A stretch of 64,000 nt of DNA, from contig JAHWKW010000011.1 of assembly GCA_019347675.1 (NCBI GenBank), positions 5,198-69,197 of the forward strand, given 5' to 3'. The notes below the pieces were generated by a model. The model was not told where the DNA came from, did not search any database, and worked only from the letters and a program-made list of their open reading frames with translations. This DNA is from Actinomycetota bacterium. Lineage in GTDB: Bacteria; Actinomycetota; Nitriliruptoria; Nitriliruptorales; JAHWKO01. Each line of letters begins with the position of its first letter. Position 1 is the stretch's first letter. The translations under genes were made by a program, and so were the position numbers. Of the stretch, positions 14,651 through 63,266 are shown one piece after another.

Positions 14651-14858
14651 GTCTCCTCCTGAACAGGGCACCGCATCCATGGTCGCTCACGATCCGTGCG
14701 ATGCGATGGACGAACGGTCAGAGACCAGCGCATGAGACGGCATTCCCGCCGTCCCCCGTCCGTGTGGCGCTCAGCTCCCCCCGAAGGCTCCCCCGCCGGT
14801 CCTACCGGCTCGCCGGCACCGGAGTTACGCTGGACCAAGCACGGTAAGGGAGGGTCAG

Positions 14859-15364: not shown

Positions 15365-15442
15365 CTCTAGGGCCGCCGGGCACGAGTCGCCCGGCGCGAC
15401 GTCGCGGTGGAGCCAGCGGTCGTGACCGGGCGCGCGCGGCTC

Positions 15443-48849: not shown

Positions 48850-49031
48850 ACTGAACGACCGCGACAGATCGTCTGCGCCACACTCCACGTTCCTGGGACG
48901 GAGGTACAACGACCGCCAGCCTCCACGACGACATCGCCGCCAAGGTGGTTTCGATCCGGGCGAGATTGTGCGACGATCGCTGCCGCGTTGCCCTCCTGAC
49001 TTGTTCTGGCGTTGGGAAGCGAGCACATCCC

Positions 49032-49797: not shown

Positions 49798-50265
49798 CTA
49801 GTCAGCGAGCGCAAGCGAGCAGTCAGATCCGACGGTGCGGCAGAAGATGGTCGCCGTTGCCCCGTCCTGCCCCACGGGGATCTTCAGCGGGAAGTCCCCG
49901 GACTCCGGTCGCCAGTCGTCGATCACGACGTCGTCGGGATTGTTCGGGGCGAGGTCGATCTCCACCGCGGGAACGCTCGGGCGCACCGCCGTCAGGGACA
50001 GCAGACGGGTCGGGGCGCCTGCCCGTGCGATCTCGACCTGGCAGCTCGTGAGCGCAGGGATCAGGAACCGTCGGGCCGTCCGGTCGAAGCAGCCGGAAGC
50101 GATGTGCTCAGCTTCGACGGCAGGTGCCTGCCGGAGTTGGAAACGTTCCACCCAACCGTGGTCATCGGGATCAACGCTGGCCTGCTCACGGTTCGCGCCC
50201 ACGATGACGAGCACGACGAACAAGAGGACGACGAGCACGATCAGGACGGTCACCTTCCCAGGCAT
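49798..50265 (-). CDS. Hypothetical N-terminally anchored protein
   Basis: Signal-anchor MPGKVTVLIVLVVLLFVVLVIVGA, then a domain of about 125 aa containing 4 Cys. Unknown function. Confidence 0.5.
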   Translation of the reverse strand: MPGKVTVLIVLVVLLFVVLVIVGANREQASVDPDDHGWVERFQLRQAPAVEAEHIASGCFDRTARRFLIPALTSCQVEIARAGAPTRLLSLTAVRPSVPAVEIDLAPNNPDDVVIDDWRPESGDFPLKIPVGQDGATATIFCRTVGSDCSLALAD

Positions 50266-50364: not shown

Positions 50365-51293
50365 TCACGAGGGCTGCTCCGCGGGAAGGCGGCGGACCTG
50401 TCCGGGATCGAGCGGCTGGACGGGTCGGATGGTGGCCTCGGTCGGGACCTCGATGCGGATGCATTCGGCGATGCTGTCCTTCGGGAAGCGGCGCAGCACC
50501 GTCACTGTTGTGCGTCCTCGGGGCACGTTGTCGTCACGGTCTATGACGATGACCTCGATATCGTGCCGGGCGAAGCGCGGACACCCTGCCGACAAGCGCA
50601 CCTCGGCGGATGGGCCGGTCCCGATCGGCTCGTTGCCGCGGAGGTCGATCCAGACGATGTCGAGGGCGTCTGTCGGGTCGTCGTCTTCGACGTCGACCTC
50701 AAGGGTGGTGCGCAGGAACTCCTGGTCGCCGTCCGACTCGTTCGCCGTGAACGGGCTGTCCTCCGCCGCCGGCCTGATCTCCGCGATCGTCGGCCCGGGG
50801 GTACCCGTGTCATCTGCGGGCAGCGGGCCGTCCCTGGCGACAATCGCGATCACCGTCCCACCACAACCACCGCGGCGACAACAGCGGCGATCCACCAGGG
50901 GAACGGACGCGGCGAGCGCCCTTCGGGGACCTCCACGCTGATGCGCTGACTCTCGTGATGGACGTCGTCGGGATCGTCCTCGGCATGGAGCCGTGACGGG
51001 AGGCTCTGGGCGTTGCTCAACCACCTTGAGCCGGACGTGTGACGTGCCGGCCGCCGCGTCCGCCGGCACGGCCACGTCCACCGTGAACATCACCGCCTCG
51101 TCGACCCCCGCCTCGCGCACCGGTTCGCGGACCGTGTACCAGTGCTCGTGAGCGGGATCATCGGTCAACGCCATCGCACGCATCGTGCGGGCCGCGCCGG
51201 TCTTGTTCTGCACGCTGAACACCACCGACCCGGCGCGTGACGCCCCGTCCAAGGGCACGTGGTCGGTCCCGGCTCGATCGTGAAGTAGCTCAT
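50365..51293 (-). pseudogene. Decayed paralog of the CIS-associated membrane protein at 61887-63203 (three frameshifts)
   Basis: ATG 51293 overlaps the stop of the upstream CIS gene (ATGA) and encodes MSYFTIEPG, matching MPYFTIDPG of the paralog. A 1-nt deletion follows (CCGGGACC here versus CCAGGGACC in the paralog), and the homology continues in another frame (TDHVPLDGASRAGSVVFSVQNKTGAAR...). A second shift comes before AEDDPDDVH..PFPWWIAAVVAAVVVVG. A third comes at the TGA within the TM segment. Confidence 0.6.
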
Positions 51294-51856
51294 GCGCGAC
51301 CGTCCTCGTCCTGCGGGGCTGGTTCCTCGTCTGGGCCGGCGGTGCGCGGGTAGACGATGTCGTATGTGGCATGCGCGGGGCGTTCGACACGGACGATCCG
51401 CTCGATCAGCGGCGCCAGGTGCGCGGCAGCCTCCGGGACGGACACCGTGACGTGGAAGCCCGGATCGGTCGCGTCGTCGACCTGGAAGCCGGAAACGCCG
51501 GTGGCGGTCTCCAGGAACAGCAGGAGCCCCTCGGCGGTGCCCCGGCGAGCCGATAGTTGGGGTGCCAGCGCGATCAGGTTGCGCAGACGGCCGAGTCCAG
51601 CGGCGAAGCGCTGTTGCGGACCGCCCTCGGCCGCGTCGGCGAGGACCCAGTCAAGGTCCACCCAGCGGCTGAGGAACGGGACCATGTTGGGAGGCGCCAG
51701 GTAGGGGTCGAGGTACTCGTCGAGCCGTTCCAGGACGGCTTCGGCAGGGGCGTGGAACTGATCCATCGCGTCGAGGAGAGCGATCAGCGGGCTCCCAGGT
51801 TTCAGGGCGGTCTGGTAGACGCCTGGCAGAAGGCGCTGGATGGCCTCGCGTCGCAT
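51290..51856 (-). CDS. CIS baseplate protein, phage P2 gpI-like tail protein (Afp12/Cis12-type)
   Basis: Start at ATG 51856, overlapping the upstream stop (TGATG). Blocks LLPGVYQ, LDEYLDPYLAPPNMVPFLSRWVDLDW and ARRGTAEGLLLFLE match the phage tail protein I domain family. Confidence 0.8.
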   Translation of the reverse strand: MRREAIQRLLPGVYQTALKPGSPLIALLDAMDQFHAPAEAVLERLDEYLDPYLAPPNMVPFLSRWVDLDWVLADAAEGGPQQRFAAGLGRLRNLIALAPQLSARRGTAEGLLLFLETATGVSGFQVDDATDPGFHVTVSVPEAAAHLAPLIERIVRVERPAHATYDIVYPRTAGPDEEPAPQDEDGRA

Positions 51857-54483
51857 CAGGTTCTCACCACCTCGACGTCGTGGTCGCCGGACACGAACAG
51901 CCACGTGGGAGGGAGCGTGACGGATTCATCGAACTCCGACCGGGATGCCCGCGTGAACTCCTCCCCGGGAGGCGTCTCGGGAGCGCCCACGCTGCGGTAG
52001 ACGCCAGCCGGGCCTCCGGCCAACAGCATCGACGTGTCCGGGTCGGTGGCGAGCGTCCGCACCGGGTGGAAGCGCCCGACCTCCCGCAACGGCAGGCCCG
52101 AATCGACGGCCGGCCGCCACCACCGGCGTTCCTCGCCGCGTAGCGGCAGCCGCTGCACCCCTGCCAGATGGGAGGCACCGAAGGCGTGGTGACCGAGGAA
52201 GGCGAGCGCCCAGCAGCTCCCACCTTCCCAGCCGTCACCCAGTTGCTGCCACGTCAACTCCTCGTCCTCGAGGCGGGTCCGGAAGCATCCCTGTCCGGGG
52301 CCACCTCCCTCGGCGGCTGTCCCGGCCCACAGGAACGTGGCGTTGCCCTCGTACTGGACCGCGAGGCTGCGGACGTCCTGCCCCTCGAGACCGGCGTGGA
52401 TGAACGTTCCGGCGCGGCCCTCGAGCCGGGACCGGTAGATGCCCGCCGTTCGCTGGCCAGCGAGCGCGACTGCGAGGTTCCCGCCCGGCTGGGTGTAGGA
52501 GACGACACGGTAGAACCCGAGGTCGGGTTGTCCGGGGTCGACCGAGCTGAAGGCGGCGGTGGCTTCCGGCGTGAGCGCCTGCTCGTACAGGCCCTGCTCG
52601 GTGGCGAGGAGCAACGCCGGGGTCTCGTCACGCTGGATCCATGCCAGGTCCTCGATCGGGAAGGCGAACTGCGCCACCGGCCCATCCCCCCACGTCTCTC
52701 CCAGATCGGTCGAGACGTAGACGCGACCCGCCTCTTCGCCAGCCGGCTGGGTCGTCACCGCGAGGAACCCCGGGCGGCGTCCCAAGCCGATCCGACCGGG
52801 CTCGCGCGGGTACGGCTCGATCCTGCGGACGGTCTCCCCTTCGAACCGCCAGAGCGGCTCCCACCCGATGCCGTCGTTGAGGGAACGGAACACGTCGCTG
52901 CCGCAGGCCGCATACCAAGCGGACGGCTGGTAGGGATCGGCCGCGACGGCGGTGACGTCCGCATCGGGGACCTCGTCGACGTGCAGCCGGACGCGGTCGG
53001 CCCATATCACCCCGGGCTCGGCCAGCAAGATGTCGTAGACGTCCGACACCCGCAGCGCCTGGCCGAACGGCCAGCCGGGCCACGTCTCCCCCTGCGAGGC
53101 CCGGACACGCTGACCGGTCGGGAGCGGGTTGATCGTGCGGTGCAGCCGCTCGAGGACGCGCTGGGTGAGCGCGTTCTCGTCCTCGTCCGACCGGATGCCC
53201 ACCCTGGCACGGACGGTAACCGCCTTGACCTTGGCCCATTTGACGACGCATTCGATGCCGAGCGGCCGTCTGGCCTCGAGCTGGGAGGTGACCTCGGCGA
53301 GCCCATGCGGAGTGGTGCGCGCCTCCAGGTCCGCGCTGGTTACCCGTCCGCGGGATCGGACGCCAGGCTCCACATGCGGGACGATCACCACCTCCACCGA
53401 CCCGCGCGGGGCGTACGACCAGTACTCGCTGCGAGCGAACGCCCGCGCCCGGCTAACCGCCCCGGACCGGCGCGCGATCAACTCGTAGTCGCGCTCAGTG
53501 ACGGCGCGGTCGCGGGCGTGGAACTCGTGCGGGCCGCGGAGCGCGGCGTTCTCCGCAGACTCGGCGTCCCGTCCCCCGATGGCCCGGATCGGGTTGGTGA
53601 CCTCGACGCCAGCCACCTCGTCCAGGAAGGTGGTCAGGGTCCCCGGCGCGACGTTTCCCTCCGGACCACCGCCGGTCCGGTACCAGACCAGCACGTTCAG
53701 GCCCGGTCCGGGCACCCGGGCGAGCCCCCGGACCCGCTCCGCTGCGCCGCCCGCTCCTGGGGCCGCCAGGTCGACCGCCGGGGCGAACATGATCGTGCCC
53801 TCGATCCGGTCGACGCTGTAGACCGCCGCGTCGGGCTCCAGGTCGGCGAAGTGCTCGACCTCCTGCCAGATCCGGTAGGTCCTGCCCTGATGTTCGAGTG
53901 CCGCGCCGCGGACCGTTCCCTCGGTGTCTGCGACCTCCACCGCCACGATCAGGTCGTCGTCCGCGGTCATGACCATGGGCGGTCGCGACACCCGGAGGAC
54001 CTGGCCCGGTTGCCCCGACGTCACGCCGACGTGCTCGCCTTCGACCAGCTCGCAGTGGTACGCGAGCGCTTCGACGTGCTGCTGGCCGGCTGGGATCGCG
54101 GTGGCTGCGGTGAGGACGAATACGGGCTGGTCCCCTTCACCGTCGGAGGCGCCGACGCGCGTGCCGCGCGGGATCTCGAGCGACGCCGTCGTCTCCGCGG
54201 GATCGGCACGGCTGAACCGGAGCGTCGCCCGAGCGGCTCGCGGCGGGAGCAGCTTCACACCGATCAGGTTGAGGTAGGAGCGGTACGCCTTCTCGGGCAC
54301 GCGGTTGAGGCGGTAGATCATCACCTCGGTGAGGTGGGCAAACGCCTCGAGGAGGGTCATCCCCGGATCGCCAGGACCCGCCTGGGCGGTCCATCGCGAG
54401 CCGGACGACCGGATGCGCTCGAGGGCTTCCTCCAGAAGTTGGAGGAAGTCCCGGTCGTCAAGATCGGGAGTCGGGATCGGCAT
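51856..54483 (-). CDS. CIS baseplate J-like wedge protein (Afp11/Cis11-type) with a C-terminal BNR/Asp-box propeller-like extension
   Basis: Start at ATG 54483. MPIPTPDLDDRDFLQLLEEALERIR..WTAQAGPGDPGMTLLEAFAHLTEVMIYRLNRVPEKAYRSYLNLIGVKLLPPRAA is the putative-baseplate-assembly-protein N-terminus. The last ~355 aa contain Asp-box-like motifs (YVSTDLGETWG, FRSLNDGIGWEP). Confidence 0.85.
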   Translation of the reverse strand: MPIPTPDLDDRDFLQLLEEALERIRSSGSRWTAQAGPGDPGMTLLEAFAHLTEVMIYRLNRVPEKAYRSYLNLIGVKLLPPRAARATLRFSRADPAETTASLEIPRGTRVGASDGEGDQPVFVLTAATAIPAGQQHVEALAYHCELVEGEHVGVTSGQPGQVLRVSRPPMVMTADDDLIVAVEVADTEGTVRGAALEHQGRTYRIWQEVEHFADLEPDAAVYSVDRIEGTIMFAPAVDLAAPGAGGAAERVRGLARVPGPGLNVLVWYRTGGGPEGNVAPGTLTTFLDEVAGVEVTNPIRAIGGRDAESAENAALRGPHEFHARDRAVTERDYELIARRSGAVSRARAFARSEYWSYAPRGSVEVVIVPHVEPGVRSRGRVTSADLEARTTPHGLAEVTSQLEARRPLGIECVVKWAKVKAVTVRARVGIRSDEDENALTQRVLERLHRTINPLPTGQRVRASQGETWPGWPFGQALRVSDVYDILLAEPGVIWADRVRLHVDEVPDADVTAVAADPYQPSAWYAACGSDVFRSLNDGIGWEPLWRFEGETVRRIEPYPREPGRIGLGRRPGFLAVTTQPAGEEAGRVYVSTDLGETWGDGPVAQFAFPIEDLAWIQRDETPALLLATEQGLYEQALTPEATAAFSSVDPGQPDLGFYRVVSYTQPGGNLAVALAGQRTAGIYRSRLEGRAGTFIHAGLEGQDVRSLAVQYEGNATFLWAGTAAEGGGPGQGCFRTRLEDEELTWQQLGDGWEGGSCWALAFLGHHAFGASHLAGVQRLPLRGEERRWWRPAVDSGLPLREVGRFHPVRTLATDPDTSMLLAGGPAGVYRSVGAPETPPGEEFTRASRSEFDESVTLPPTWLFVSGDHDVEVVRT

Positions 54484-54917
54484 CAGACCTCCTCCCCGTG
54501 CAGGCGCAGCGGGTACACGAACTCGCTCAGCTCCTGCGTCGCGCGCAGCCGGTACCGGATGGTGATGACGAGCGTCTCGGCGTCGGCGCCATCCCGGTTG
54601 GCGTCGACGTCCAAGACGTCGATCCGGGGTTCCCATCGGCGCAGGGCTTGGCGCACGTAATGGATGGCCAGACCCGCGGTCGTATCGTTGTTGAGCGCGA
54701 ACACCAGCCAGTGGATCCGGCACCCGTACTGAGGCCGCATCACGCGCTCGCCGGGGGCCGTCGACAGGAGGAGCAGGATCGACTGCCGGACCGCCGCGGG
54801 TCCGTCGACCAGCTCGAGCGCCCCGGTCGGGGCGACCTGCAGGCCAGGGCGGGCCACCCCCGGTTCCCATTCGGGATGGGCGAACCGGAACGAGCTGACG
54901 GGACCGCCGTCAGGCAT
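54483..54917 (-). CDS. CIS baseplate wedge protein, GPW/gp25 family (Afp9-type)
   Basis: VRQSILLLLSTAPGERVMRPQYGCRIHWLVF..AIHYVRQALRRWEPRI is the gp25 lysozyme-like fold signature. The start is at ATG 54917. Confidence 0.85.
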   Translation of the reverse strand: MPDGGPVSSFRFAHPEWEPGVARPGLQVAPTGALELVDGPAAVRQSILLLLSTAPGERVMRPQYGCRIHWLVFALNNDTTAGLAIHYVRQALRRWEPRIDVLDVDANRDGADAETLVITIRYRLRATQELSEFVYPLRLHGEEV

Positions 54918-55260
54918 CAGCGTTGAGCAGGGTCTGCCCGGGGGTGCGGACCGAGTAGTGGAAGGTGCCCGGAGGCGCACCGTCAGTCAGTCCCTTCACC
55001 GTATCCAGGCACACCGGGTGCCCATCGATCCTGACCAGCGCCGAGTAGCCGGTCTGCACCCGAAGCGTCGTCATGCACGGCTTCTGGCCGGTCAGGGGGT
55101 TGAGGTTCGGGCACCCCACAATGGTGCGGTCCTCCGGATCGGTGGCGACCAGCAGCGGGCGTCCCTCCACCGTGACCCACCGCTGGGACGGACGGTTGCG
55201 GACCACGCCCAACTGGTGGTCGCACACCACGACGGCCGCGTCGGTCATCGCGCGCATCAA
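54910..55260 (-). CDS. PAAR-like spike-tip protein (Afp10-type)
   Basis: 116 aa, immediately after the VgrG-like gene with an ATGA overlap. It has a Cys/His/Gly pattern (VVCDHQLGVV..VGCPN..KPCMTT..IDGHPVC) compatible with a PAAR/DUF4280-like cone. The call rests mainly on position and size. Confidence 0.6.
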   Translation of the reverse strand: MMRAMTDAAVVVCDHQLGVVRNRPSQRWVTVEGRPLLVATDPEDRTIVGCPNLNPLTGQKPCMTTLRVQTGYSALVRIDGHPVCLDTVKGLTDGAPPGTFHYSVRTPGQTLLNADA

Positions 55261-56774
55261 CCGCGCTCCAGGTCGATGGCGTCCGCAACGACCGTGATGC
55301 GCTTGCCCGGGGCCTCGATCAGCAGGTCACATGCTGCGTGCAACCGGACCTGGTCAGGTGTCAACTCGACGAAGCTCCCGGCAGCGTTCTGCACGCGCAC
55401 CCGATCGGCGGTCTCGTCGAGGACGATGCGCTGCCCCGCCCGCGTGGTGAACGTGTACCGGCGAACCCGACCGTCCTGCACGCCGGCGTCGGGCGCCGGC
55501 TCCGAACCGTACAGGCCGCCCACCACCACGCCCCGCGCCGGGTCGCCGTGCGGCAAGGCGACGAGCACGCGATCGTCGACGTCGGGCAGTGCAACCAGGC
55601 CCTTACCGGCTCCGGCTCCGGACAGCACGACCTGCAGCCATTCGGTCGGGGCGTCGTCGAAGGTGGGGAGGTGGACCTTCACCCGGCCGAGCTGTTCCGG
55701 GTCATCGACGTCCACGACACGACCGGGCGCCAGCGCCGCCGGGCGGTCCGTCCGGCGGTCGCGGGTCGGTTCGGTGCTGAACTCGGTGAGGAAGCCCGGC
55801 TCCCCCACGGTGTGGGTCGCGCTGGTCACGACGTAGCGCCCCGCGAGCCCCGGGGCGGTGTCGTCGACGCGGACGGGCGTTCCGGGGCGGATCCGGTGGT
55901 CGCCCTCGGCGACCCCCCACAGCGTCACCTCGCCAGCCGAGCGCACGTCCAGCTCGGCCTGCGCCTCGCCCCGGGTGAGATCGGCCGTGGGCGCCCCGAC
56001 GTGGGCGAGAACCCGCTCGTCGCTGCCCCCCACCTGGGTCGCAGTGACGCTGGCGCCGACGTCTCTGGACGTGCGCGCGTCGCCAGCCTCCTCCCGGTGG
56101 ACATCGATCCGCCGCGGGTCCCACCCGAGCGCGACGACCCGGCGAGCAGCCCGCTCCGCGTTGACCTCCGTGCGGGCCTGCCACAGGTTCCTTCCCAGCT
56201 CCAGACGAATCTCGTCCCCGGCACCCTCGAGTGTGATCAAGTGCAGCGCCCCGTCGTGGACCGTGAAGAACAGGCCCGCCCGGGCGGTGACCTCCTGGAG
56301 GAGTTCGAGGTCGCTCTGCGCGTGCTGGGTGATCTGCGGCCAACGGGGGCCGCTCTCCGCCACGTCGACGTCCAAGCCGACCGCCCCTGCGAGCTGCTCC
56401 GCCAGCTCCGCCGGGGTCAGCTGCGCGAAGGTGCGGACCTGCTGCCGCTTGCGTAGGCGGTGCAGCAGGTCATAGGCGCGTACCCGCACCACCACGCCGC
56501 GGTCACCCTCGTAGACATGCTCGACGACGGTGGTCTCGCCCTCGAACAGGGCTGTGCCGTCCGCGGCCAGCCCGACCTGGAGTTGCGTGCCCGGTTGGAG
56601 GCGGCGCCCCACGTCGAACGTCGACGGCGGGTCGACGAACGTCAGCTCCGCTTGGGTCGGGACCGACAGTCGCTGGCGGATCCGCAACGCGCTCAGCGGC
56701 CGCCGTTCCCCCTCGTTGAGGGCGGCTCCGTCGACCCGGACGAGCAGTTCGGGCAGGCTGGCGATCGCGGTCAC
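55257..56774 (-). CDS. CIS spike/hub protein, VgrG-like (phage gpD + gp5 OB fold; Afp8-type)
   Basis: Start at GTG 56774 (GTGA overlap). gpD-like region (FEGETTVVEHVYEGDRGVVVRVRAYDLLHRLRKRQQVRTF..SDLELLQEVTARAGLFF). gp5/VgrG OB region (GRVVDVDDPEQLGRVKVHLPTFDD..WLQVV..GLVALPDVDDRVLVALPHGDPARGVVVGGLY). Confidence 0.85.
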   Translation of the reverse strand: MTAIASLPELLVRVDGAALNEGERRPLSALRIRQRLSVPTQAELTFVDPPSTFDVGRRLQPGTQLQVGLAADGTALFEGETTVVEHVYEGDRGVVVRVRAYDLLHRLRKRQQVRTFAQLTPAELAEQLAGAVGLDVDVAESGPRWPQITQHAQSDLELLQEVTARAGLFFTVHDGALHLITLEGAGDEIRLELGRNLWQARTEVNAERAARRVVALGWDPRRIDVHREEAGDARTSRDVGASVTATQVGGSDERVLAHVGAPTADLTRGEAQAELDVRSAGEVTLWGVAEGDHRIRPGTPVRVDDTAPGLAGRYVVTSATHTVGEPGFLTEFSTEPTRDRRTDRPAALAPGRVVDVDDPEQLGRVKVHLPTFDDAPTEWLQVVLSGAGAGKGLVALPDVDDRVLVALPHGDPARGVVVGGLYGSEPAPDAGVQDGRVRRYTFTTRAGQRIVLDETADRVRVQNAAGSFVELTPDQVRLHAACDLLIEAPGKRITVVADAIDLERG

Positions 56775-57511
56775 CGCGTGGACCGCCGTGGCCGGGTCGG
56801 CGGGATCCTCAGCGCGGTGCCGGCCTCGATCCCGAACGGGTCGTCCAAGTCGTTGTAGACGGCCAGCAGTCGCCAACTGAGCGGGTTGTCCAGCGCCTGG
56901 GCCGCAACCAGGTCGGGGCGCGTGCCGGCGTACCCGCCCGCGTCGTCGCCGTCGCCGATGGCTCTGACCACCCCGACCGGCTCCGCGTCGAGATCGATGG
57001 CACTGGGTGGCTGCGGTGGTTCCGGGAACTCGCGGAACATCTCCTCGGACTCCTCGGCGACCCGGAGCAGCTTCAGCTTCAGCCAGGACCGGCGGGGGAC
57101 TCCCTCGGCGGTGAAGTCGTCGAACCGCTCGGCCGCCGCGGCGACCACCCCCGGCACGTTCCACGACTTGCCCCACACGAACCGCACCAACGGGGGGCGG
57201 CGGACGCCCTGCTGCCGGGCGGTGTTCTCGGCCAGCATCATCAGCGGCCGGGTGAGTTCACGCACGTCCTGGTACAGCTCGGCAGTGCGCTCGCTGATGG
57301 TGATGTCGAACAGCAGGTCGAGGTCGAGCTCGGTCCGGCCACCACCGGTGAACAGCAACGGGTCGTCCATCAAGGTACTGCCGGTGAGCTGGCCAGCGGC
57401 GGTGCTGCGCGGTCGTACCCCGGCCGCCCGGCTGACGACCACCGTGCTGGGGTTGAGCAGGCAACCGATCCGCTGCCCGGTCTCCTCGATGAGGAAGGCG
57501 ACCCGTTCCAC
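56771..57511 (-). CDS. CIS tube-initiator / baseplate hub protein with a LysM-like C-terminus (Afp7-type)
   Basis: Start at GTG 57511, overlapping the upstream TAG (TAGTG). Tube-like N-terminal half (VAFLIEETGQRIGCLLNPSTVVVSR..LLFTGGGRTELDLDLLFD). The C-terminus DLVAAQALDNPLSWRLLAVYNDLDDPFGIEAGTALRIP resembles LysM. The upstream 355 aa of track ORF 56771-58576 are rejected as Arg/Pro-rich and out of frame. Confidence 0.7.
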   Translation of the reverse strand: MERVAFLIEETGQRIGCLLNPSTVVVSRAAGVRPRSTAAGQLTGSTLMDDPLLFTGGGRTELDLDLLFDITISERTAELYQDVRELTRPLMMLAENTARQQGVRRPPLVRFVWGKSWNVPGVVAAAAERFDDFTAEGVPRRSWLKLKLLRVAEESEEMFREFPEPPQPPSAIDLDAEPVGVVRAIGDGDDAGGYAGTRPDLVAAQALDNPLSWRLLAVYNDLDDPFGIEAGTALRIPPTRPRRSTR

Positions 57512-58662
57512 TAGAAGCCTTCCTGCTCGCGATCGAGCCTGGCGAGGTGCTCGGTGCCGTCGCCCAGTGGCTGCGTGTCCGTTCCCGGCGACAGCGCCGG
57601 CAGGGCAGGCAGGTCGGGCAGGGCGGGCCACAGCTCCTCGGCTCGGCGCGGGGCCTGGAAGGCCGCGCTGCCGGGTGCGCCTGCGGGGCTGTCGGCCGAC
57701 CGTGGCAACGGGGTGGGGGCGCTGGCCGGGTCGGCCGGGAACCGGACCGATGGGCTCTGCGGCGCGGGCTCCGGCGGGAAGCGGGGCGTGACGTGGCGCT
57801 CGCGGCCCCCGCCGGGGTCGTCGTGCGGCGGCCAGGCGGCCGGCCCGGACGCGGCCGGGGAGACGGGCTGTGGTGCGCTGGTCGCGGCCATCCCGGTGCC
57901 GTGATCGGCGAGCCGGCCGGCGTCGGACGGCGCAGCGTGCGTGTCGGCGGCGGAGGCCGGACCGGCGCCTGGCTCGGAGGCCGGCTGTGGGGGCGGCTGT
58001 GGGGGCGGGTCTGCTTCGCGCGGGGGCTGCGGTTCGAGCCTCCCCCTCGCGCCTGCGCTCGGGCCGGATACCTCGGGGTATCTGGGGCGGGGGCGGGCGT
58101 CGGCGTGGTCCATGGGCCCCGCGGTCGACGGCGTCCGAGCTGGCGCGTCCGGCTGCGCGAAGGAGGTCTGCATCTGTCGCGGCGGCGGCGGGGGGACGGC
58201 ACCCGCGGTGCCAGGAGATCCCTGTTCGGCCGGGTCGTGCGCGCCAGCGCTCGGACCGGGGTTCCCGGTCTCGCCTGATCGTTGCGGCCAGGCGGTGCCG
58301 TCCGCGACCACCGCGAACGGGAGCCATCCTCCTTCCCAGGGCGGTGGCCCGTCCGGTTGGGTAGCCCCGCCTTGCACTGGACGGGCAGACGCGCGCGGCA
58401 GGTCCGCGCGCGGCGGTCCGACCGGGCTCTGGTGGGTGCGCAGTCCTGCATCGAGGAGATGCGGGGCGCGTTCCCGAAGCAGCGCGACCCAGTGGTCGGG
58501 CGCGGATCCCAGCGCGGATCCCGGCGCGTTCGGCGAGGCCCCCGGCGGGGGCTGCGTCGTCGGCGTCGCGACCCATCCGTCAAGGGTCGTCGCGACCCGC
58601 CGGAGCCTACTGGCCAGGCGCGCCAGGAGGCGGTCCCTCAGCCGGCCGACCTGTCGTGTCAC
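57511..58662 (-). CDS. Pro-rich low-complexity protein in the CIS operon (possible tape-measure analogue)
   Basis: 383-aa ORF between the tube and tube-initiator genes, on the same strand. It has an ordered N-terminus (APDHWVALLRERAPHLLDAG) and C-terminus (EELWPALPDLP..LARLDREQEGF), with about 250 aa of P/A/G/S-rich sequence between them. The start is uncertain: ATG 58662 would overlap the tube gene by 56 nt. Confidence 0.5.
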   Translation of the reverse strand: MTRQVGRLRDRLLARLASRLRRVATTLDGWVATPTTQPPPGASPNAPGSALGSAPDHWVALLRERAPHLLDAGLRTHQSPVGPPRADLPRASARPVQGGATQPDGPPPWEGGWLPFAVVADGTAWPQRSGETGNPGPSAGAHDPAEQGSPGTAGAVPPPPPRQMQTSFAQPDAPARTPSTAGPMDHADARPRPRYPEVSGPSAGARGRLEPQPPREADPPPQPPPQPASEPGAGPASAADTHAAPSDAGRLADHGTGMAATSAPQPVSPAASGPAAWPPHDDPGGGRERHVTPRFPPEPAPQSPSVRFPADPASAPTPLPRSADSPAGAPGSAAFQAPRRAEELWPALPDLPALPALSPGTDTQPLGDGTEHLARLDREQEGF

Positions 58663-59113
58663 GTTCGATGCCTTCGTAGACGAGCGTCAGACACTCGATG
58701 GCGAGCGCCTTGCTCATGGCGTCGAGCGGCGCCCCGACCCAGCGCGTGGGCCAGGCCCGGGTGAGGTTCCAGCGCAGCACCTCCCCGACGGCGTCCTGGT
58801 CGCGCATCACGATCGAGACCTCCCGCCGGTCGATCTCGCCGGCCGCCGCCGACATCAGCCAGTCCCACATCTGGTCGGACTGGGTCAGCCCGTAGCACAG
58901 CGTGATCTCCGCGTAGTCGACCTGCCCGGGGATGTACCGGGGCGTGACGTTCGCGCCGCCCTCCCGGTACTTGATCGCCTCGACCTGGACGCCCATGCCG
59001 GACACGCTTGTGAAGTGGCCGTTGCCGATGCCCTGCACCTCGACGTGGAAACGGAACGACCGGAGTGGATCGGTGACGCTCCCCGGTGCGGCCGTTGCAC
59101 CTATCTCAGCCAT
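58607..59113 (-). CDS. CIS inner tube protein (T4 gp19-like; Afp1/Cis1-type)
   Basis: DPLRSFRFHVEVQGIGNGHFTSVSGMGVQVEAIKYREGG..YIPGQVDYAEITLCYGLT..MWDW..WNLTRAWPTRWVGAPLDA is the conserved phage-tail-region tube family pattern. Confidence 0.85.
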   Translation of the reverse strand: MAEIGATAAPGSVTDPLRSFRFHVEVQGIGNGHFTSVSGMGVQVEAIKYREGGANVTPRYIPGQVDYAEITLCYGLTQSDQMWDWLMSAAAGEIDRREVSIVMRDQDAVGEVLRWNLTRAWPTRWVGAPLDAMSKALAIECLTLVYEGIERDTTGRPAEGPPPGAPGQ

Positions 59114-59123
59114 GCTGCACTCC

Positions 59124-60368
59124 TCAGCTCTCGCCTTCGCCGGCCTCGACGCCGCGCTCCGTGTGGGTGATCTCGAAGATGACGAACTCGGCCGGCTTGA
59201 CCGGGGCGATGCCGATCACGCATCGGACCTCGCCCGCGTCGACGCTCTCTGGGGGGTTGGTCTGCTCGTCGCAGCGGACGAAGAAGGCCTCGTCGGGTGT
59301 CCGGCCCATCAGCGCCCCGTCGCGCCAGACGCGCGTCAGGAAGGCGCGCACGTCACGGCGGATCCGGTTCCACAGCTGGTAGTCGTTGGGCTCGAAGACG
59401 ACCCACCGTGTCCCCTCGGCGATCGACTCCTTGAGCATGTTCACGAGCCGGCGCACCGGCACGTAGAGGTACTCGCTGGCCGCGTCGGCCAGCGTTCGCG
59501 CCCCCCACACCATGATCCCCTCGGCCGGGAAGTAGCGCAGGCAGTTGACGCCGCGCGGGTTGAGGACCCCCTGCTCCTCGCGGGTGACGCGGTAGGTGAG
59601 GTTCAGCGCGCCACGGACCGGTTCGTTCGCCGGCGCCTTGTGGACGCCCCGCGTCGCGTCGGTGCGGGCGTAGATCCCAGCCAGACTGCCGGAGGCCGGT
59701 GCGGTCACCTGCCCGGGACCGAACGGGTTGCCGACGACGACCTGAGGGAAGTAGACCGCGGCATGCGTGCTGTTGGGCGGCCGGTACCCGCCCGCGCCAG
59801 ACAGGCCACCGCCGCCACCCCCGCCTTCGCTTGTGGTGTCCTCGTCCTCGTCGCCACGCTCGCTGCGGCGGGACGTCGTGGGTTCGGCGGTGGCCACCTC
59901 GGTCAAGCGCTCGACGCGATCCACATCCGCCGGGGCGTCCAGGATCGCGAAGCGGTCCTCCATCTTCTCGCAGTGGGTGATCAGCGCCTGGTACGACTCG
60001 ATGTCGGTACGGCCGGGCGCTGCCACGATCGCGAGCTCGTCGACCGCCTCGAACAGGCTGAGCCCCTGCCTGGGACCTGTGATCTCGGCGTCCTCGGATC
60101 CGAGGTTGACGATGTGAAGTCGCCGGCCACCGTTGTCGAAGAACCCCTGGACGGCCAGCGCCAGCGCGGTCGGCTGGGGATCGTCGACGTCGGCGAAAGT
60201 GTCGACGAACCGGGGCCACCCTTCGACGGCCACGATCTCGTTGACCCGCGCGTTGCTGTCAGGCGCCACGCCGACGAACCCTGCGGTGCTGGTGCCGACC
60301 CTTTGGATCGGACGGGCCCCTGAGGGGACCTCTCGGACGTAGACGCCGGGCGTCAGGTAGGTGGTCAC
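59124..60368 (-). CDS. CIS contractile sheath protein (Afp2/Cis2-type)
   Basis: GTG start. The N-terminus TTYLTPGVYVREVPSG..VGTSTAGFVGVAP and the C-terminal block RGVNCLRYFPAEGIMVWGARTL..YVPVRRL are classic phage tail sheath signatures. Confidence 0.9.
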   Translation of the reverse strand: MTTYLTPGVYVREVPSGARPIQRVGTSTAGFVGVAPDSNARVNEIVAVEGWPRFVDTFADVDDPQPTALALAVQGFFDNGGRRLHIVNLGSEDAEITGPRQGLSLFEAVDELAIVAAPGRTDIESYQALITHCEKMEDRFAILDAPADVDRVERLTEVATAEPTTSRRSERGDEDEDTTSEGGGGGGGLSGAGGYRPPNSTHAAVYFPQVVVGNPFGPGQVTAPASGSLAGIYARTDATRGVHKAPANEPVRGALNLTYRVTREEQGVLNPRGVNCLRYFPAEGIMVWGARTLADAASEYLYVPVRRLVNMLKESIAEGTRWVVFEPNDYQLWNRIRRDVRAFLTRVWRDGALMGRTPDEAFFVRCDEQTNPPESVDAGEVRCVIGIAPVKPAEFVIFEITHTERGVEAGEGES

Positions 60369-60369
60369 G

Positions 60370-61047
60370 TCATTCCTCCTGCATCTCGCAGCGGATCACC
60401 AGCGGTTCGCCGTCGGTCGCGACGTCCGCGGTCGCGACGAACTGCCGGCCTTTGGCGCTGATGCGGAACCGCTGCTGGCCTTCCCCGCGGGGGACCGACG
60501 GGAAACCGAAATGCCCGCGCTCGTCGCTGTAGGCACGACGGTCGAGGCCGACCAGCTCGATCCGAGCATGAGGGATCGGCACCGACCCGGGACCGACGAT
60601 CCGCCCCTCCAGCGTCCCGACCGCCGACAGGTCGACCGCCAGCGGCCGCACCACCAGGGAGACCTGCGGCTTGGGCCGCGGCACGGTGACCTCCACGTCC
60701 ACGACGAACGACGGGCGAGGTGGCACCCCAAGGGCCAACCAGACCTCGGGCGGCAGCGCGCCGAGGTCGACGTCCCAGTCGGGCACCTGGAGGGCCGTCA
60801 CCAACAGCTCCTGCAGGCGGCCGGCGGCGTCCTCGCCCTGCGTGAGCACCAGGCACCGCAGCCCGAACCTCAGCGGCTCCCGGTGGCCGGCGTCGCGCAG
60901 CTCCTGACGAGGACTCAAGGCCAACGGGTACAGGACGACGTCGGCGTCCGCAGCCGAACCGGGCTCCTCCCTGCTGATCGTGACCGGCCCCAGAACCGAC
61001 TGCGCCCACTCCCGCAGAGCCTCCTCTACGTGGCGAACGGATTCCAC
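60370..61047 (-). CDS. CIS tail terminator/cap protein (DUF4255, Afp16-type) with a carboxypeptidase-regulatory-like C-domain
   Basis: DUF4255-like N-domain (VVLYPLALSPRQELRD..FGLRCLVLTQGED..LQELLVTALQ). The C-domain GTLEGRIVGPGSVPIPHARIELVG..RAYSDERGHFGFPSVP is CarboxypepD_reg-like. The stop lies 1 nt before the sheath start. Confidence 0.75.
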   Translation of the reverse strand: MESVRHVEEALREWAQSVLGPVTISREEPGSAADADVVLYPLALSPRQELRDAGHREPLRFGLRCLVLTQGEDAAGRLQELLVTALQVPDWDVDLGALPPEVWLALGVPPRPSFVVDVEVTVPRPKPQVSLVVRPLAVDLSAVGTLEGRIVGPGSVPIPHARIELVGLDRRAYSDERGHFGFPSVPRGEGQQRFRISAKGRQFVATADVATDGEPLVIRCEMQEE

Positions 61048-61263
61048 CCTCGAGTCTCGTTCTACACGGGAACACGCGCCGCGTACCGACGCCCCAGGTC
61101 AACCCCGCGCACATCTGCGCCCGTCGGGATCCTAGCGCAATCCGTGCGGATAAGGCAGACCTGATGCAGTTCGGATTCACGGCCGTCGACGGTCGAATCC
61201 GGTGCGCCCCAGGCGAGGGCCAGCGCCGTCGGGGTTCGATCGACCTCAGCACGGAGCTGACCC

Positions 61264-61869
61264 TTACACCGCGTACGCCCATTCCTCGTGCCACGTGTGG
61301 GGATAGACGCCACACATGAAGTAGTCCTTGAAGGAACGGATCGGCTTGCTCTGGTGGTCGTGGTAGAGGAGCCAGTAGGGCAGGACCGTGGCCAGGACGT
61401 AGTTGACCATCACCAGGGGCACGTAGGTGGGACCGAAGATGCGGGCCTGGACGACATGCATGTACTCGTGGTTGGCGGTGTGCTTGGAGGTTCCTGCTTC
61501 GACGTTGCCGATGGTCGTGGCGAAGCCGGGAAAGAGACCATCCCGGAGCACGACCGTGCTGCGGGACTCGCTCTGCGTCTTGTCTGGACGATTGCCGAGG
61601 ACCAGGTTGAGCGTCAAGAAGAGGGAGCCCAGGATCGTGTTCGGCAGGCTCCAGGTGTGGTCGACGATCAAGAGCCAGACCCCGCGCGCATCGTTGCCGT
61701 AGCTCTTCGTGACGACGACGGCGACGGCATGCACGACGCCCAGCGCCAGCCCGACGGCACCGAACGCGACACCGCTCGCGGGGTTCATGGCCGCGCCGCC
61801 CAGACCGAGCGCGGCCGTGTTCGTGATCACACGAACGATCGCGACCGTGGCGGCGTAACTTGTCGGCAT
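61264..61869 (-). CDS. Membrane protein with an HExxH motif (putative metallopeptidase-like)
   Basis: 201 aa with about 4-5 TM helices and the motif NHEYMHVVQARIFGP between helices. A 100-nt sample I counted by hand within this gene is 58% GC, against roughly 70% estimated elsewhere in the window. It lies directly upstream of the CIS operon on the same strand. Confidence 0.55.
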   Translation of the reverse strand: MPTSYAATVAIVRVITNTAALGLGGAAMNPASGVAFGAVGLALGVVHAVAVVVTKSYGNDARGVWLLIVDHTWSLPNTILGSLFLTLNLVLGNRPDKTQSESRSTVVLRDGLFPGFATTIGNVEAGTSKHTANHEYMHVVQARIFGPTYVPLVMVNYVLATVLPYWLLYHDHQSKPIRSFKDYFMCGVYPHTWHEEWAYAV

Positions 61870-61886
61870 CGGAGTTGTCTTCCCGG

Positions 61887-63203
61887 TCAGTCGACCGGCG
61901 CATCCGATGGAACTCGCTGCGGGTCCGAGGCCTCAGAGCCTGCGCCGGCACCCAGGTGGCCGTCGTTCCCCGCCCCGCTGGAGTCCTCCGCAAGTTGCCC
62001 GGTTTGTTCGTCGAACCGCCAGTAACCGACAAGGCCGGGAAGGTCACCGCTCAGCGTCTCGTTCATCGTTGCCGTGACGTCGTTCTGCGAACGTGCCACG
62101 TTCCAGACCCGGACCTCATCGATCAAGCCGTGGAAGGAGTCTTCCCAGATGCCGATGAGCAGCACGTTCGCATTCGAGACCTGACCAGTGTGAGGGGCGA
62201 CGTCGAGCAGTTGGCCATCCCGATAGATGCGGATCTGGGCGCCATCGTAGGTGGCTGCCAGATGCTGCCACTGGCCGACCTGGAGGTTGCCAACTCCTGA
62301 GCTCGCAGAGTCGCATCCGGGAACGCAGACGCTCAGCCCCCATCGACTGTGGTCGTTGCGGTCAAGGAACAGGGTCCACGCGGAGCCGGAGAAGGGCGGG
62401 AGGGTTTTGGCGTGTTGAACGACCGCAGCGAAGCTTCCGTTAGATGCCACCGATTGTGGTCTGACCCACGCCTCCACCGTGAACTGGGTCTGGAAGTTGA
62501 AGTCGCCTGTTGTGTTGGGGACGCTGACGAAGTCGTTTTCCCCGTCGAACTGCAGGGCGCCGTTCGGCACACCCGACGACACGACGAGGTCGACGGCGGT
62601 GCCCGGCTCGACGTCCGTGCCAGCCGCAGGGTCCTGCGCGACGACCCGACCTTCCGGCTCCTCGTCGGAGGGCTGCTCGGTGACGTCCCCGAGCGCCAGA
62701 CCAGCGGAAACCAACCGCTCCTGCGCCGCCTCGACGGTGAGCCCGCCCACGTCAGGAACACCGACCCCGCCGTCGTTGCCGACGACGATCCACATCACCA
62801 CCGCCACCGCGACCACCGCGACGACCACCGCGACGATCCACCACGGGAACTTCCCCCCACCGTCCGGCGGGACCTGGACCGGGACCTGCTGGCTGACGTC
62901 GTGGACGTCGTCCGGGTCGTCCTCCGCGACCGCCGTCAAGCGGAAGTGGTACCTCCCGGCCTCGACCTCGGGGGGCACCGCGACGTCCACGGAGAACTGC
63001 AGCGTTTCGTCCACACGAGCCTGCTGCACGGGCTCCTTGACGGTGTACCAGTCCTCCTGGGCTGGGTCCTCGACCGAGACGCGCGAACGGATCTGTCGAG
63101 CGACGCCACTCTTGTTCTGCACGCTGAACACCACCGATCCGCGACGCGTGGACGTGTCAACAGCGACGTGGTCGGTCCCTGGATCGATGGTGAAGTACGG
63201 CAC
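61887..63203 (-). CDS. Bitopic membrane protein: conserved cytoplasmic N-domain, TM, PASTA and LamG (concanavalin-like) ectodomains
   Basis: GTG start (MPYFTIDPGTDHV..GSVVFSVQNKSG). TM segment WWIVAVVVAVVAVAVVMWIVV. PASTA module (VPDVGGLTVEAAQERLVSAGLALGDVTEQPSD..VVAQDPAAGTDVEPGTAVDLVVS). LamG-type domain (LQFDGENDFVSV..FTVEAWVRP..WQHLAATYDGAQIRIYRDGQL..IDEVRVWNVARS). Confidence 0.75.
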   Translation of the reverse strand: MPYFTIDPGTDHVAVDTSTRRGSVVFSVQNKSGVARQIRSRVSVEDPAQEDWYTVKEPVQQARVDETLQFSVDVAVPPEVEAGRYHFRLTAVAEDDPDDVHDVSQQVPVQVPPDGGGKFPWWIVAVVVAVVAVAVVMWIVVGNDGGVGVPDVGGLTVEAAQERLVSAGLALGDVTEQPSDEEPEGRVVAQDPAAGTDVEPGTAVDLVVSSGVPNGALQFDGENDFVSVPNTTGDFNFQTQFTVEAWVRPQSVASNGSFAAVVQHAKTLPPFSGSAWTLFLDRNDHSRWGLSVCVPGCDSASSGVGNLQVGQWQHLAATYDGAQIRIYRDGQLLDVAPHTGQVSNANVLLIGIWEDSFHGLIDEVRVWNVARSQNDVTATMNETLSGDLPGLVGYWRFDEQTGQLAEDSSGAGNDGHLGAGAGSEASDPQRVPSDAPVD

Positions 63204-63266
63204 CCCGGTTCCTTCCTCATGTTCGCGAGACCACCACGTGTCAGGGATGGCTGATCCCGGTGGCGA

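What the first reader, a model, noticed from the sequence alone, without database searches (positions are those of the whole stretch)
61887..63203. CIS-adjacent membrane protein combining a novel cytoplasmic N-domain with PASTA and LamG ectodomains: candidate membrane adaptor or trigger
This gene lies just upstream of the CIS operon on the same strand. It encodes about 120 aa of beta-rich cytoplasmic domain (MPYFTIDPGTDHV..GSVVFSVQNKSGVAR..WYTVKEP..FSVDVAVPPEVEAGRYHFRL), one TM helix, a PASTA module and a LamG lectin-like domain. PASTA modules are known to bind peptidoglycan precursors or muropeptides.

The same N-domain recurs in the gene that is translationally coupled to the last CIS gene (50365-51293). 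That ties this domain family to the CIS on both flanks.

My inference is that the cytoplasmic N-domain docks the CIS particle while the wall-sensing ectodomain reports envelope state. This would be analogous to the membrane protein reported to recruit cytoplasmic CIS in Streptomyces, but with a different domain set. I do not recognise the N-domain as a named family.
Basis: inference. Interest (0 to 1): 0.75.

Follow-up and report, generated by a model that had tools for sequence, protein, structure and literature searches.

The report
Membrane anchor family beside contractile injection systems
This gene belongs to an undescribed family of single-pass membrane proteins, with a conserved Ig-like domain inside the cell and swappable cell-wall-binding domains outside, that is encoded where tail fibres normally sit in phage-tail-like injection machines, so it probably couples the machine to the cell envelope.

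Summary
ORF 61887-63203 (-) encodes 438 aa: a confidently modelled eight-strand beta-sandwich (aa 4-111), one TM helix (121-142), a PASTA domain (149-210) and a Laminin_G_3 domain (220-376).

The N-domain plus its 'FPWW' TM helix defines a large family with no Pfam or NCBIfam model. It always sits at the extreme N-terminus. The ectodomains after it vary widely (PASTA, Cys-rich repeats, CARDB, PKD, LamG, or none).

Charge bias and Cys distribution place the N-domain in the cytoplasm.

Seven of seven members chosen only for contig length lie just downstream of the Cis12-like baseplate gene of a compact CIS operon. In a motif-based metagenome scan, 13 of 17 loci with at least 3 kb upstream do the same. 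They occur as 1-5 tandem copies. No relative was found in 2.9 million viral contigs. About a quarter of informative loci are solo genes.

The window's sheath, Cis11 and Cis12 are closest to the Streptomyces cytoplasmic CIS, where the unrelated-looking CisA occupies this slot.

The window's canonical copy (50365-51293) carries three frameshifts. Two intact copies, the target and its 92%-identical upstream neighbour, sit upstream of the operon.

Docking to the baseplate is inferred, not shown. Verdict: probable CisA-like membrane adaptor or trigger from a new family.

The parts
61887..63203 (-). Target gene, 438 aa (MBW3577859.1): N-domain, TM helix, PASTA and Laminin_G_3.
62868..63203 (-). Cytoplasmic Ig-like beta-sandwich N-domain (aa 1-112). 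Includes the conserved acidic loop AEDDPDDV, which is PDEDFTEGP in the wider family.
   Evidence: AF2 mean pLDDT 92 with eight strands. Family alignments A4 and A5. Foldseek finds only PapD/MSP/FixG_C-type Ig folds.
62778..62849 (-). Single TM helix (aa 119-142) that begins with the family-wide FPWW motif.
   Evidence: AF2 helix 121-142. P120, W121 and W122 are nearly invariant. Charge statistics.
62574..62759 (-). PASTA domain (aa 149-210), extracytoplasmic.
   Evidence: Pfam PF03793, E 6e-17. NCBIfam PknB_PASTA_kin matches only the TM+PASTA region.
62076..62546 (-). Laminin_G_3 (ConA-like lectin/glucanase) domain (aa 220-376), extracytoplasmic.
   Evidence: Pfam PF13385, E 4e-26.
63267..64000 (-). 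3' part of the upstream tandem paralog (P0005 / MBW3577860.1, 441 aa): the same N-domain, TM helix and first PASTA, then two more PASTA domains and an Ig-like C-terminus. It runs off the window.
61264..61869 (-). 201-aa polytopic membrane protein with an HExxH motif, 17 nt downstream of the target. A recurring neighbour of target-type genes (L091, L004).
60370..61047 (-). First gene of the CIS operon: weak Pvc16_N (cap-like) match plus a CarboxypepD_reg domain.
59124..60368 (-). CIS sheath.
   Evidence: Pfam Phage_sheath_1 and 1C. Closest solved structures are the Streptomyces cytoplasmic CIS sheaths 8bky/9gtp, E 1e-99.
58607..59113 (-). CIS inner tube (gp19-like).
56771..57700 (-). CIS_tube-family tube initiator. 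The start codon is approximate.
55257..56750 (-). VgrG-like spike (Phage_GPD plus Phage_base_V). The start codon is approximate.
54910..55260 (-). 116-aa conserved gene between the spike and gp25 genes, no Pfam match. Conserved in all related loci.
54483..54980 (-). gp25-like baseplate wedge protein.
51856..54483 (-). Baseplate_J / Cis11-like protein with a C-terminal extension of about 370 aa that is rich in Asp-box-like repeats.
51290..51904 (-). Tail_P2_I / Cis12-like baseplate protein.
   Evidence: NCBIfam tail_TIGR02242 and CIS12_fam, both sub-threshold. PDB 9gtp_E, E 1.6e-4.
50365..51293 (-). N-domain paralog in the canonical (CisA / tail-fibre) slot. Its ATGA overlaps the Cis12-like stop. 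It is disrupted by three frameshifting indels and is probably a pseudogene.
49798..50265 (-). 155-aa protein with an N-terminal TM helix ('post162'), a conserved accessory gene found after the N-domain genes in many loci.
48945..49793 (+). 282-aa polytopic membrane protein ('post235'), a conserved accessory gene of these loci.

Best explanation
The target is one of three paralogs in this genome of a bitopic membrane-protein family that acts as the membrane adaptor, and possibly the trigger, of a compact, Streptomyces-type cytoplasmic contractile injection system (CIS).

**Proposed mechanism**
1. The conserved N-terminal Ig-like sandwich, with its invariant acidic loop, faces the cytoplasm. It binds a peripheral baseplate component, as the conserved N-terminus of a tail fibre does. 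The family's genes sit in the tail-fibre / CisA slot directly after the Cis12-like gene.
2. The FPWW helix fixes the protein in the cytoplasmic membrane.
3. The variable ectodomain, here PASTA plus a LamG lectin-like domain, sits in the cell wall. It determines where, or under which envelope state, the particle is recruited and fired.

**Shown here:** domain architecture, family-wide topology signals, and genomic linkage to the CIS.

**Inferred:** baseplate binding, peptidoglycan or glycan sensing, and any triggering role.
For: **Architecture**
- Pfam PASTA and Laminin_G_3.
- AF2 model of aa 1-145, pLDDT 92: sandwich plus TM helix.

**Family**
- An exhaustive HMMER search found many proteins with the N-domain at residue ~3, followed by one TM helix and then variable ectodomains. 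Of the best 150 hits plus P0001 (151 proteins), 80 carry the N-domain.
- A second search gave 143 more members, many consisting of the N-domain and TM helix only.

**Topology, over 112 members**
- K+R in the 12 residues flanking the TM helix: 2.09 on the N side against 1.27 on the C side.
- D+E in the same flanks: 0.55 against 1.48.
- Cys content: 0.13% in the N-domain against 2.42% in the ectodomains.
- No signal peptide and no second TM helix.

**Linkage to the CIS**
That operon runs sheath, tube, CIS_tube, VgrG, gp25, Baseplate_J, Tail_P2_I.
- Metagenome scan: 13/17 loci with at least 3 kb upstream, and 16/23 with at least 1.5 kb upstream, have CIS core genes directly upstream.
- The median gap to the Cis12-like gene is about 32 nt, and the gap is 150 nt or less in 29 of 36 loci. 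Loci carry 1-5 tandem copies.
- L091 holds the closest full-architecture relative, P0027 (N-domain, TM helix, 2 PASTA, LamG; 59% identity over aa 1-214). There it lies downstream of the operon, next to the same HExxH and polytopic accessory genes.
- There are no relatives in 2.9 million viral contigs.

**CIS lineage**
- The sheath, Cis11 and Cis12 are closest to CIS-Sc.
- In Streptomyces the gene in this slot, cisA, encodes a bitopic protein that is required for firing and is predicted to bind Cis11 (PMC12237407).
Against: - No interaction test was possible.
- The fold is a generic Ig-like sandwich with no diagnostic similarity to any CIS or phage protein.
- Four of 17 loci with at least 3 kb upstream are solo genes in unrelated neighbourhoods, for example L039, L041, L072 and L082.
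- The target itself is not in the canonical slot. A 216-nt gap and another gene separate it from the operon.
- The canonical-slot copy in this genome is frameshifted.
- Ligand binding by PASTA domains is not universal and was not examined here.
- No complete genomes with the family were recovered, so genome-level co-occurrence is untested.
Confidence: 0.55

Rival explanations
1. The family is linked to the CIS but does not recruit it. It could be a membrane-located safety catch or immunity factor that sequesters or inhibits particles. It could be an assembly nucleation site. It could be a marker of the membrane patch to be punctured.
For: The same linkage and topology evidence applies. Firing of a cytoplasmic CIS kills the producer, so the CisA authors argue that checkpoints are plausible (PMC12237407). 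Tandem arrays with different ectodomains would also suit a set of sensors.
Against: Nothing here distinguishes activation from inhibition. By analogy, CisA is required for firing rather than preventing it.
Confidence: 0.2
2. The family is a general envelope protein, for example a wall-binding or wall-sensing anchor with a cytoplasmic Ig-like protein-interaction module. Its frequent position next to CIS operons would then reflect co-transfer or co-regulation rather than direct function.
For: Solo members occur in unrelated contexts: L027, L038, L039/L041, L072, L082 and L086. The fold is generic. The target lies outside the operon proper.
Against: Immediate adjacency to the Cis12-like gene, often with overlapping stop and start codons, is seen in 29 of 36 loci from diverse lineages. 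The accessory gene set is conserved. The N-domain is much more conserved than the ectodomains.
Confidence: 0.12
3. These proteins are true tail fibres of a released extracellular CIS. The conserved N-terminus would bind the baseplate, the variable C-terminal domains would bind target cells, and the hydrophobic segment would not be a membrane anchor.
For: The genes sit in the tail-fibre slot after the P2 gpI-like gene. The conserved N-terminus and variable C-terminus follow the modular logic of tail fibres.
Against: The hydrophobic helix of about 22 residues, with K/R on its N side and the FPWW interface motif, is a canonical TM segment. Many members are just the N-domain plus TM helix, with no binding domain. 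The ectodomains are Cys-rich. The family is absent from viral contigs. The nearest characterised CIS is cytoplasmic and lacks fibres (PMC12237407).
Confidence: 0.05

Closest known systems
CisA (SCO4242) of the Streptomyces coelicolor cytoplasmic CIS (Casu et al., eLife 2025, PMC12237407)
   Same: Both are bitopic proteins with the N-terminus in the cytoplasm and the C-terminus outside. Both are encoded directly after the baseplate genes of a type IId-like CIS, in the slot where tail fibres usually lie. The extracytoplasmic domain is proposed to act as a sensor. The window's sheath, Cis11 and Cis12 are closest to CIS-Sc.
   Different: [quoted passage not shown] This family has a compact, folded Ig-like N-domain of about 110 aa. 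Its ectodomains are interchangeable (PASTA, LamG, CARDB, PKD, Cys-rich repeats, or none), and its genes come as 1-5 tandem paralogs. No sequence relationship was detected, but CisA itself could not be compared directly.
Phage P2 gpH-type tail fibres and eCIS Afp13-like fibres
   Same: Same gene position after the gpJ/gpI-like baseplate genes. Same modular logic of a conserved N-terminus with variable C-terminal binding domains. Sometimes several copies.
   Different: This family has a bona fide TM helix between the two parts, so the two ends lie in different compartments. It has no fibrous shaft and no relatives in viral contigs.
PASTA-domain Ser/Thr kinases (PknB / Stk1 / PrkC)
   Same: A single TM helix followed by extracellular PASTA repeats. 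NCBIfam PknB_PASTA_kin matches aa 109-213.
   Different: There is no kinase domain. The cytoplasmic part is an Ig-like sandwich. The score is 62 bits against a cut-off of 450.
VAP / MSP-domain membrane tethers and PapD-like Ig domains (fold level only)
   Same: The N-domain model superposes on MSP, PapD and ASH Ig-like sandwiches. VAPs are also membrane-anchored cytoplasmic Ig-like tethers for partner proteins.
   Different: Sequence identity is 8-18% and TM-score about 0.5. The membrane orientation is opposite (VAP is tail-anchored). The resemblance is an analogy, not homology.
T6SS membrane complex (TssJLM) and anchors of the thylakoid-anchored CIS
   Same: The proposed function is the same: coupling a contractile baseplate to a membrane.
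   Different: No sequence or architectural similarity was seen. Those are multi-protein envelope-spanning complexes or extensions of baseplate proteins.

Membership tests
CisA family (Streptomyces CIS membrane adaptor) | Encoded directly downstream of the cis11/cis12 baseplate genes of a type IId-like CIS cluster. | tested here: inconclusive
   Met for the N-domain family (29 of 36 loci within 150 nt of the Cis12-like gene) and for the frameshifted window copy at 50365-51293. Not met for the target itself, which lies upstream of the operon. Its closest relative, P0027, lies downstream.
CisA family (Streptomyces CIS membrane adaptor) | [quoted passage not shown] | tested here: met
   By prediction only: one TM helix, positive-inside and Cys statistics, and PASTA on the C-terminal side. 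There is no experimental topology.
CisA family (Streptomyces CIS membrane adaptor) | Long (about 285 aa), largely unstructured cytoplasmic region. | tested here: not met
   The cytoplasmic part is a folded beta-sandwich of about 110 aa, pLDDT 90-98.
CisA family (Streptomyces CIS membrane adaptor) | Conserved C-terminal domain resembling solute-binding proteins. | tested here: not met
   The ectodomain is PASTA plus Laminin_G_3. Ectodomains vary across the family.
CisA family (Streptomyces CIS membrane adaptor) | Sequence homology to SCO4242. | not tested
No NCBIfam or Pfam model matched beyond PASTA and LamG.
CisA family (Streptomyces CIS membrane adaptor) | Required for CIS contraction and function; interacts with Cis11. 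| not testable with these tools
   Needs genetics, cryo-ET, or AF-Multimer with paired alignments.
PASTA Ser/Thr kinases (PknB/Stk1) | N-terminal Hanks-type kinase domain. | tested here: not met
   The NCBIfam match covers only profile positions 323-431 (TM helix plus first PASTA), 61.9 bits against a cut-off of 450. There is no Pkinase hit.
NPCBM_assoc (NEW3) / CARDB-type Ig-like domains | Score above the Pfam gathering threshold. | tested here: not met
   The target scores 16.9 bits against a cut-off of 24.4. 33 of 53 family members match only at E up to 0.1; the best E-value is 1.6e-5. The fold class is the same.
Phage / eCIS tail fibres | Soluble fibrous protein present in phage or eCIS particles, with relatives in phage genomes. 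| tested here: not met
   Canonical TM helix. Zero relatives in IMG/VR viral contigs. No match to any solved phage or CIS chain.

The most novel reading that the evidence does not exclude
The N-domain/FPWW family is a general, phylum-spanning way of coupling cytoplasmic contractile injection systems that lack CisA to the cell envelope. Members are seen in Actinomycetota, Acidobacteriota and Verrucomicrobiota MAGs. On this reading they are 'inside-out tail fibres': the conserved cytoplasmic head plugs into the baseplate, and tandem arrays of interchangeable ectodomain sensors decide where and when the machine fires. Firing might even be outward through the envelope, as in a T6SS, rather than only as a suicide device.
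Probability: 0.3. Interest if true: 0.85.

Novelty: new variant of a known kind. Interest (0 to 1): 0.7.

Why it matters
**The open question.** Cytoplasmic CIS are a recently recognised mode of action. The only known factor linking them to the membrane is CisA, which is restricted to Streptomyces and its relatives. A 2026 paper notes that other cytoplasmic-CIS lineages lack close cisA homologues, so their firing mechanism is open (PMC12998442).

**What this adds.**
- It gives a concrete, widespread candidate family for that role.
- The cytoplasmic domain is small and folded, which suits interaction tests.
- The natural library of ectodomains points to the signals being sensed: PASTA suggests peptidoglycan precursors, and LamG, CARDB and PKD suggest glycans.

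**Annotation.** It supplies a marker for finding and annotating this compact CIS lineage in soil metagenomes. These genes are currently labelled 'hypothetical' or 'PASTA domain-containing protein'.

Tried and rejected
**Searches that gave little or nothing**
- A single-sequence word-indexed search with aa 1-142 found only one hit, P0001. The family emerged only with the exhaustive profile search.
- That profile accidentally included P0001's C-terminal Cys-rich repeat. The total of 4040 hits therefore mixes two domains and is not a family size. I re-scored the 151 proteins in hand with an N-domain-only HMM.
- The single genome-contig scan, run with the close subfamily, returned only L012. That hit lies antisense to a UbiB-like kinase gene and is a false positive.
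- The target and P0005 are not in the contig index.

**Structure and literature**
- Foldseek against PDB and BFVD gave only generic Ig-like matches.
- A profile search against PDB sequences found nothing significant and no CIS chain.
- The promoter and terminator scan of 60900-64000 was uninformative.
- Literature searches found no paper linking PASTA domains, or a bitopic adaptor other than CisA, to a CIS.

**Ideas considered and rejected**
- PknB-like kinase: there is no kinase domain.
- CIS cargo or effector: the Cys-rich, PASTA-bearing ectodomains need Sec/YidC insertion, so loading into the tube is implausible.
- Programmed frameshifting in the 50365-51293 copy: it has three separate indels, including a 34-nt insertion and none clearly in a slippery run, so decay or misassembly is more likely.
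- Chimeric N-domain-linker-Cis12 structure prediction: not attempted.
Full report
**1. The observation**

The window is about 70% G+C. Exact protein look-ups trace it to a 136,940-nt contig of an NCBI Actinomycetota MAG.

ORF 61887..63203 on the minus strand is 438 aa. It has a GTG start preceded by GGAAGGAA and is identical to MBW3577859.1, annotated only as 'PASTA domain-containing protein'.

- Pfam gives PASTA at aa 149-210 (E 6e-17) and Laminin_G_3 at aa 220-376 (E 4e-26).
- For the N-terminus, Pfam gives only a sub-threshold NPCBM_assoc match.
- NCBIfam adds only a partial PknB_PASTA_kin match to the TM-PASTA region, far below its cut-off.
- An AlphaFold2 model of aa 1-145, built with a 102-sequence alignment, has mean pLDDT 92. 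It shows eight strands between aa 4 and 111 and a helix at aa 121-142.

**2. The paralogs**

The N-domain recurs after the last baseplate gene, with 57% identity over 86 aa and E 8e-23.

The coordinates 50365-51293 are not one reading frame. Three-frame translation and a DNA alignment with the target show three changes:
- a 1-nt deletion at codon 8;
- a 34-nt insertion after the beta domain;
- a 1-nt deletion inside the TM segment.

The copy in the canonical slot is therefore probably a pseudogene, or a misassembly.

There is also a third copy. The gene immediately upstream of the target runs off the window at 64000 and equals P0005 / MBW3577860.1. It is 92% identical to the target over aa 1-212 and identical over the first 108 aa. 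It then carries two more PASTA domains and an Ig-like end in place of LamG.

**3. The CIS**

Genes on the minus strand from 61047 down to 51290 encode, in order:
1. a Pvc16_N-like / CarboxypepD_reg protein;
2. the sheath;
3. the gp19-like tube;
4. a P-rich unknown protein;
5. a CIS_tube protein;
6. a VgrG-like spike;
7. a 116-aa protein;
8. gp25;
9. a Baseplate_J protein;
10. a Tail_P2_I-like protein.

The closest solved structures all belong to the Streptomyces cytoplasmic CIS:
- sheath: 8bky/9gtp, E 1e-99;
- Baseplate_J protein: its only PDB relative is Cis11 of 9gtp;
- Cis12-like protein: it matches 9gtp chain E.

**4. The N-domain is a large, unnamed family**

A word-indexed search found one relative, P0001. 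An exhaustive profile search then found many proteins with the same arrangement:
- the domain starts at about residue 3;
- a conserved acidic loop follows (consensus PDEDFTEGP; AEDDPDDV in the target's subfamily);
- K/R residues precede an FPWW-initiated TM helix;
- highly variable C-terminal parts come last.

The C-terminal parts include one to four PASTA domains, Cys-rich 'GPDTC.GFVWREA..DHVCV' repeats, CARDB, PKD, a beta-propeller, LamG and EGF-like Cys-rich modules. A second search added 143 members, many of only 145-153 aa, that is the N-domain plus TM helix alone.

Pfam scans of 53 members gave only sub-threshold Ig-like matches: NPCBM_assoc in 33 of 53, FixG_C and GEVED.

Foldseek against the PDB returned generic Ig-like sandwiches (PapD-like chaperones, MSP/VAP, ASH, FixG-related) at TM-score about 0.5 and 8-18% identity. 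BFVD gave nothing specific. A profile search against PDB sequences gave nothing significant and no CIS chain.

**5. Topology**

Measured over 112 family members:

| Measure | N side or N-domain | C side or ectodomain |
|---|---|---|
| K+R in the 12 residues flanking the TM helix | 2.09 | 1.27 |
| D+E in the same flanks | 0.55 | 1.48 |
| Cys content | 0.13% | 2.42% |

The domain starts at about residue 3, so there is no signal peptide, and no second hydrophobic segment exists.

PASTA domains are extracytoplasmic in all characterised proteins (established knowledge). Together these results place the N-domain in the cytoplasm. This is a prediction, not an experiment.

**6. Linkage to CIS loci**

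*Sampled contexts.* I looked up the genomic context of seven members chosen only because they lay on long contigs: P0001, P0187, P0194, P0254, P0226, P0197 and P0233. All seven lie 0-3 kb after the Tail_P2_I-like gene of the same compact operon. An HMM scan shows 2-5 tandem N-domain genes in each locus.

*Metagenome scan.* A scan keyed only on the N-domain motifs returned 177 relatives, of which 78 loci were kept. The share with CIS core genes directly upstream:

| Upstream sequence available | Loci with CIS core genes upstream |
|---|---|
| at least 3 kb | 13 of 17 |
| at least 1.5 kb | 16 of 23 |
| at least 0.7 kb | 24 of 37 |

The first N-domain gene begins a median of about 32 nt after the Cis12-like match. 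The gap is 150 nt or less in 29 of 36 loci, and copy number ranges from 1 to 5.

*Accessory genes.* Two further genes recur after the arrays:
- a protein of about 160 aa with an N-terminal TM helix (window 49798-50265);
- a polytopic membrane protein (window 48945-49793, plus strand).

*The closest full-architecture relative.* P0027 has the N-domain, TM helix, two PASTA domains and LamG, and is 59% identical to the target over aa 1-214. In L091 it lies after a P0021-like N-domain gene and the ~160-aa accessory gene, which places it downstream of where the operon (not captured on this contig) would lie. It sits next to homologues of the window's HExxH membrane protein and polytopic protein. The window's upstream placement of the target therefore looks like a local rearrangement of the same module.

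*Controls and exceptions.*
- Neither alignment found a relative in 2.9 million viral contigs. The family is therefore not part of ordinary phage tails.
- Several loci are solo genes in unrelated neighbourhoods: L027, L038, L039/L041, L072, L082 and L086.
Genome-level co-occurrence remains untested.

**7. Interpretation**

The family sits in the slot that holds tail fibres in phage P2 and in extracellular CIS. In Streptomyces this slot holds cisA. CisA is a bitopic protein that is required for contraction and function, is not part of the purified particle, and is predicted to contact Cis11 through its cytoplasmic part (PMC12237407).

The family shares the modular logic of fibres: a conserved N-terminus, variable C-termini and multiple copies. 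It differs in having a membrane-spanning helix between the two parts.

The most economical reading has three steps:
1. The cytoplasmic Ig-like head binds a peripheral baseplate component.
2. The helix anchors the protein in the membrane.
3. The ectodomain selects the site or envelope state for firing.

The invariance of the acidic loop and of several core and surface positions in a non-enzymatic fold points to a conserved protein partner. That is an inference. Docking, PASTA or LamG ligand binding, and a trigger role are all untested. An inhibitory 'safety catch' role fits the same data.

**8. Comparison with known families**

Functionally the family resembles CisA, but it fails two tested CisA features. 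The cytoplasmic part is folded rather than disordered, and there is no solute-binding-protein-like C-terminal domain. Direct sequence comparison with CisA was not possible.

It is not a PknB-type kinase, because it has no kinase domain. It is not a tail fibre, because it has a TM helix and no viral relatives.

[quoted passage not shown] Literature searches found no description of this family.

I therefore rate it a new variant of a known kind: a second, architecturally different family of candidate CIS membrane adaptors.

**9. Verdict**

- Observation: confirmed, with a correction for the frameshifted copy and the addition of a third copy.
- Interpretation: partly supported. Topology and CIS linkage were tested and met; docking and sensing were not tested.
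- Interest: 0.7.
- Confidence in the adaptor/trigger explanation: 0.55.

Noticed in passing
window 50365-51293 (-); L001 2641-3517; L006 8141-8519 and 10863-11257: In the window, the N-domain gene in the canonical slot is broken by three indels: -1, +34 and -1 nt. Single frame switches also interrupt N-domain genes in some metagenome loci. Whether these reflect gene decay, assembly error or something regulated is unresolved.
   Followed up: partly
window 61264-61869 (-): A 201-aa polytopic membrane protein with an HExxH motif (NHEYMHVVQ) and no Pfam or NCBIfam family lies 17 nt downstream of the target. Homologues lie beside target-type genes in L091 (2175-2840) and twice in L004 (about 14075-15473). 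It may be a membrane metalloprotease-like accessory factor.
   Followed up: partly
window 51856-52980 (-): The Cis11-like Baseplate_J protein has a C-terminal extension of about 370 aa with Asp-box-like 'S.D.G.TW' repeats (BNR E 0.085). The PDB match to S. coelicolor Cis11 (9gtp) ends at query residue 502, so this extension has no counterpart there. It could be a peripheral propeller and a docking platform for the N-domain.
   Followed up: partly
window 49798-50265 (-) and 48945-49793 (+): Two membrane proteins without any family assignment are conserved after the N-domain gene arrays in dozens of related loci. One is about 155 aa with an N-terminal TM helix, and the other is a 282-aa polytopic protein. 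They appear to belong to the same accessory module.
   Followed up: partly
L002 13213-19102; L007 13857-19396; L009 13196-18823: Downstream of the N-domain arrays, several soil-metagenome loci encode Endonuclease_NS, one or two Peptidase_C14 (caspase-like) proteins, Y4kD_C, VanY and a phage lysozyme. These are plausible effectors or a lysis and cell-death module for this CIS lineage.
   Followed up: no
window 60370-61047 (-): The first operon gene combines a weak Pvc16_N (cap-like) match with a CarboxypepD_reg beta-sandwich. The same fusion precedes the sheath gene in L030 and L060.
   Followed up: partly
P0001 and many hits (e.g. P0002, P0003, P0006): A Cys-containing repeat of about 45 aa ('GPDTC.GFVWREA..DHVCV....R.Q...DN..A..R') is very abundant. 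It occurs both as an ectodomain of N-domain proteins and in proteins without the N-domain. No family name was found for it.
   Followed up: no
window 61887-62020 (-), target aa 395-438: After the Laminin_G_3 domain, the target ends with 'GYWRFDEQTGQLAEDSSGAGNDGHLG'. From memory, this resembles the usual N-terminal strand of a Laminin_G_3 domain. It could be a truncated second domain or a circularly permuted strand.
   Followed up: no
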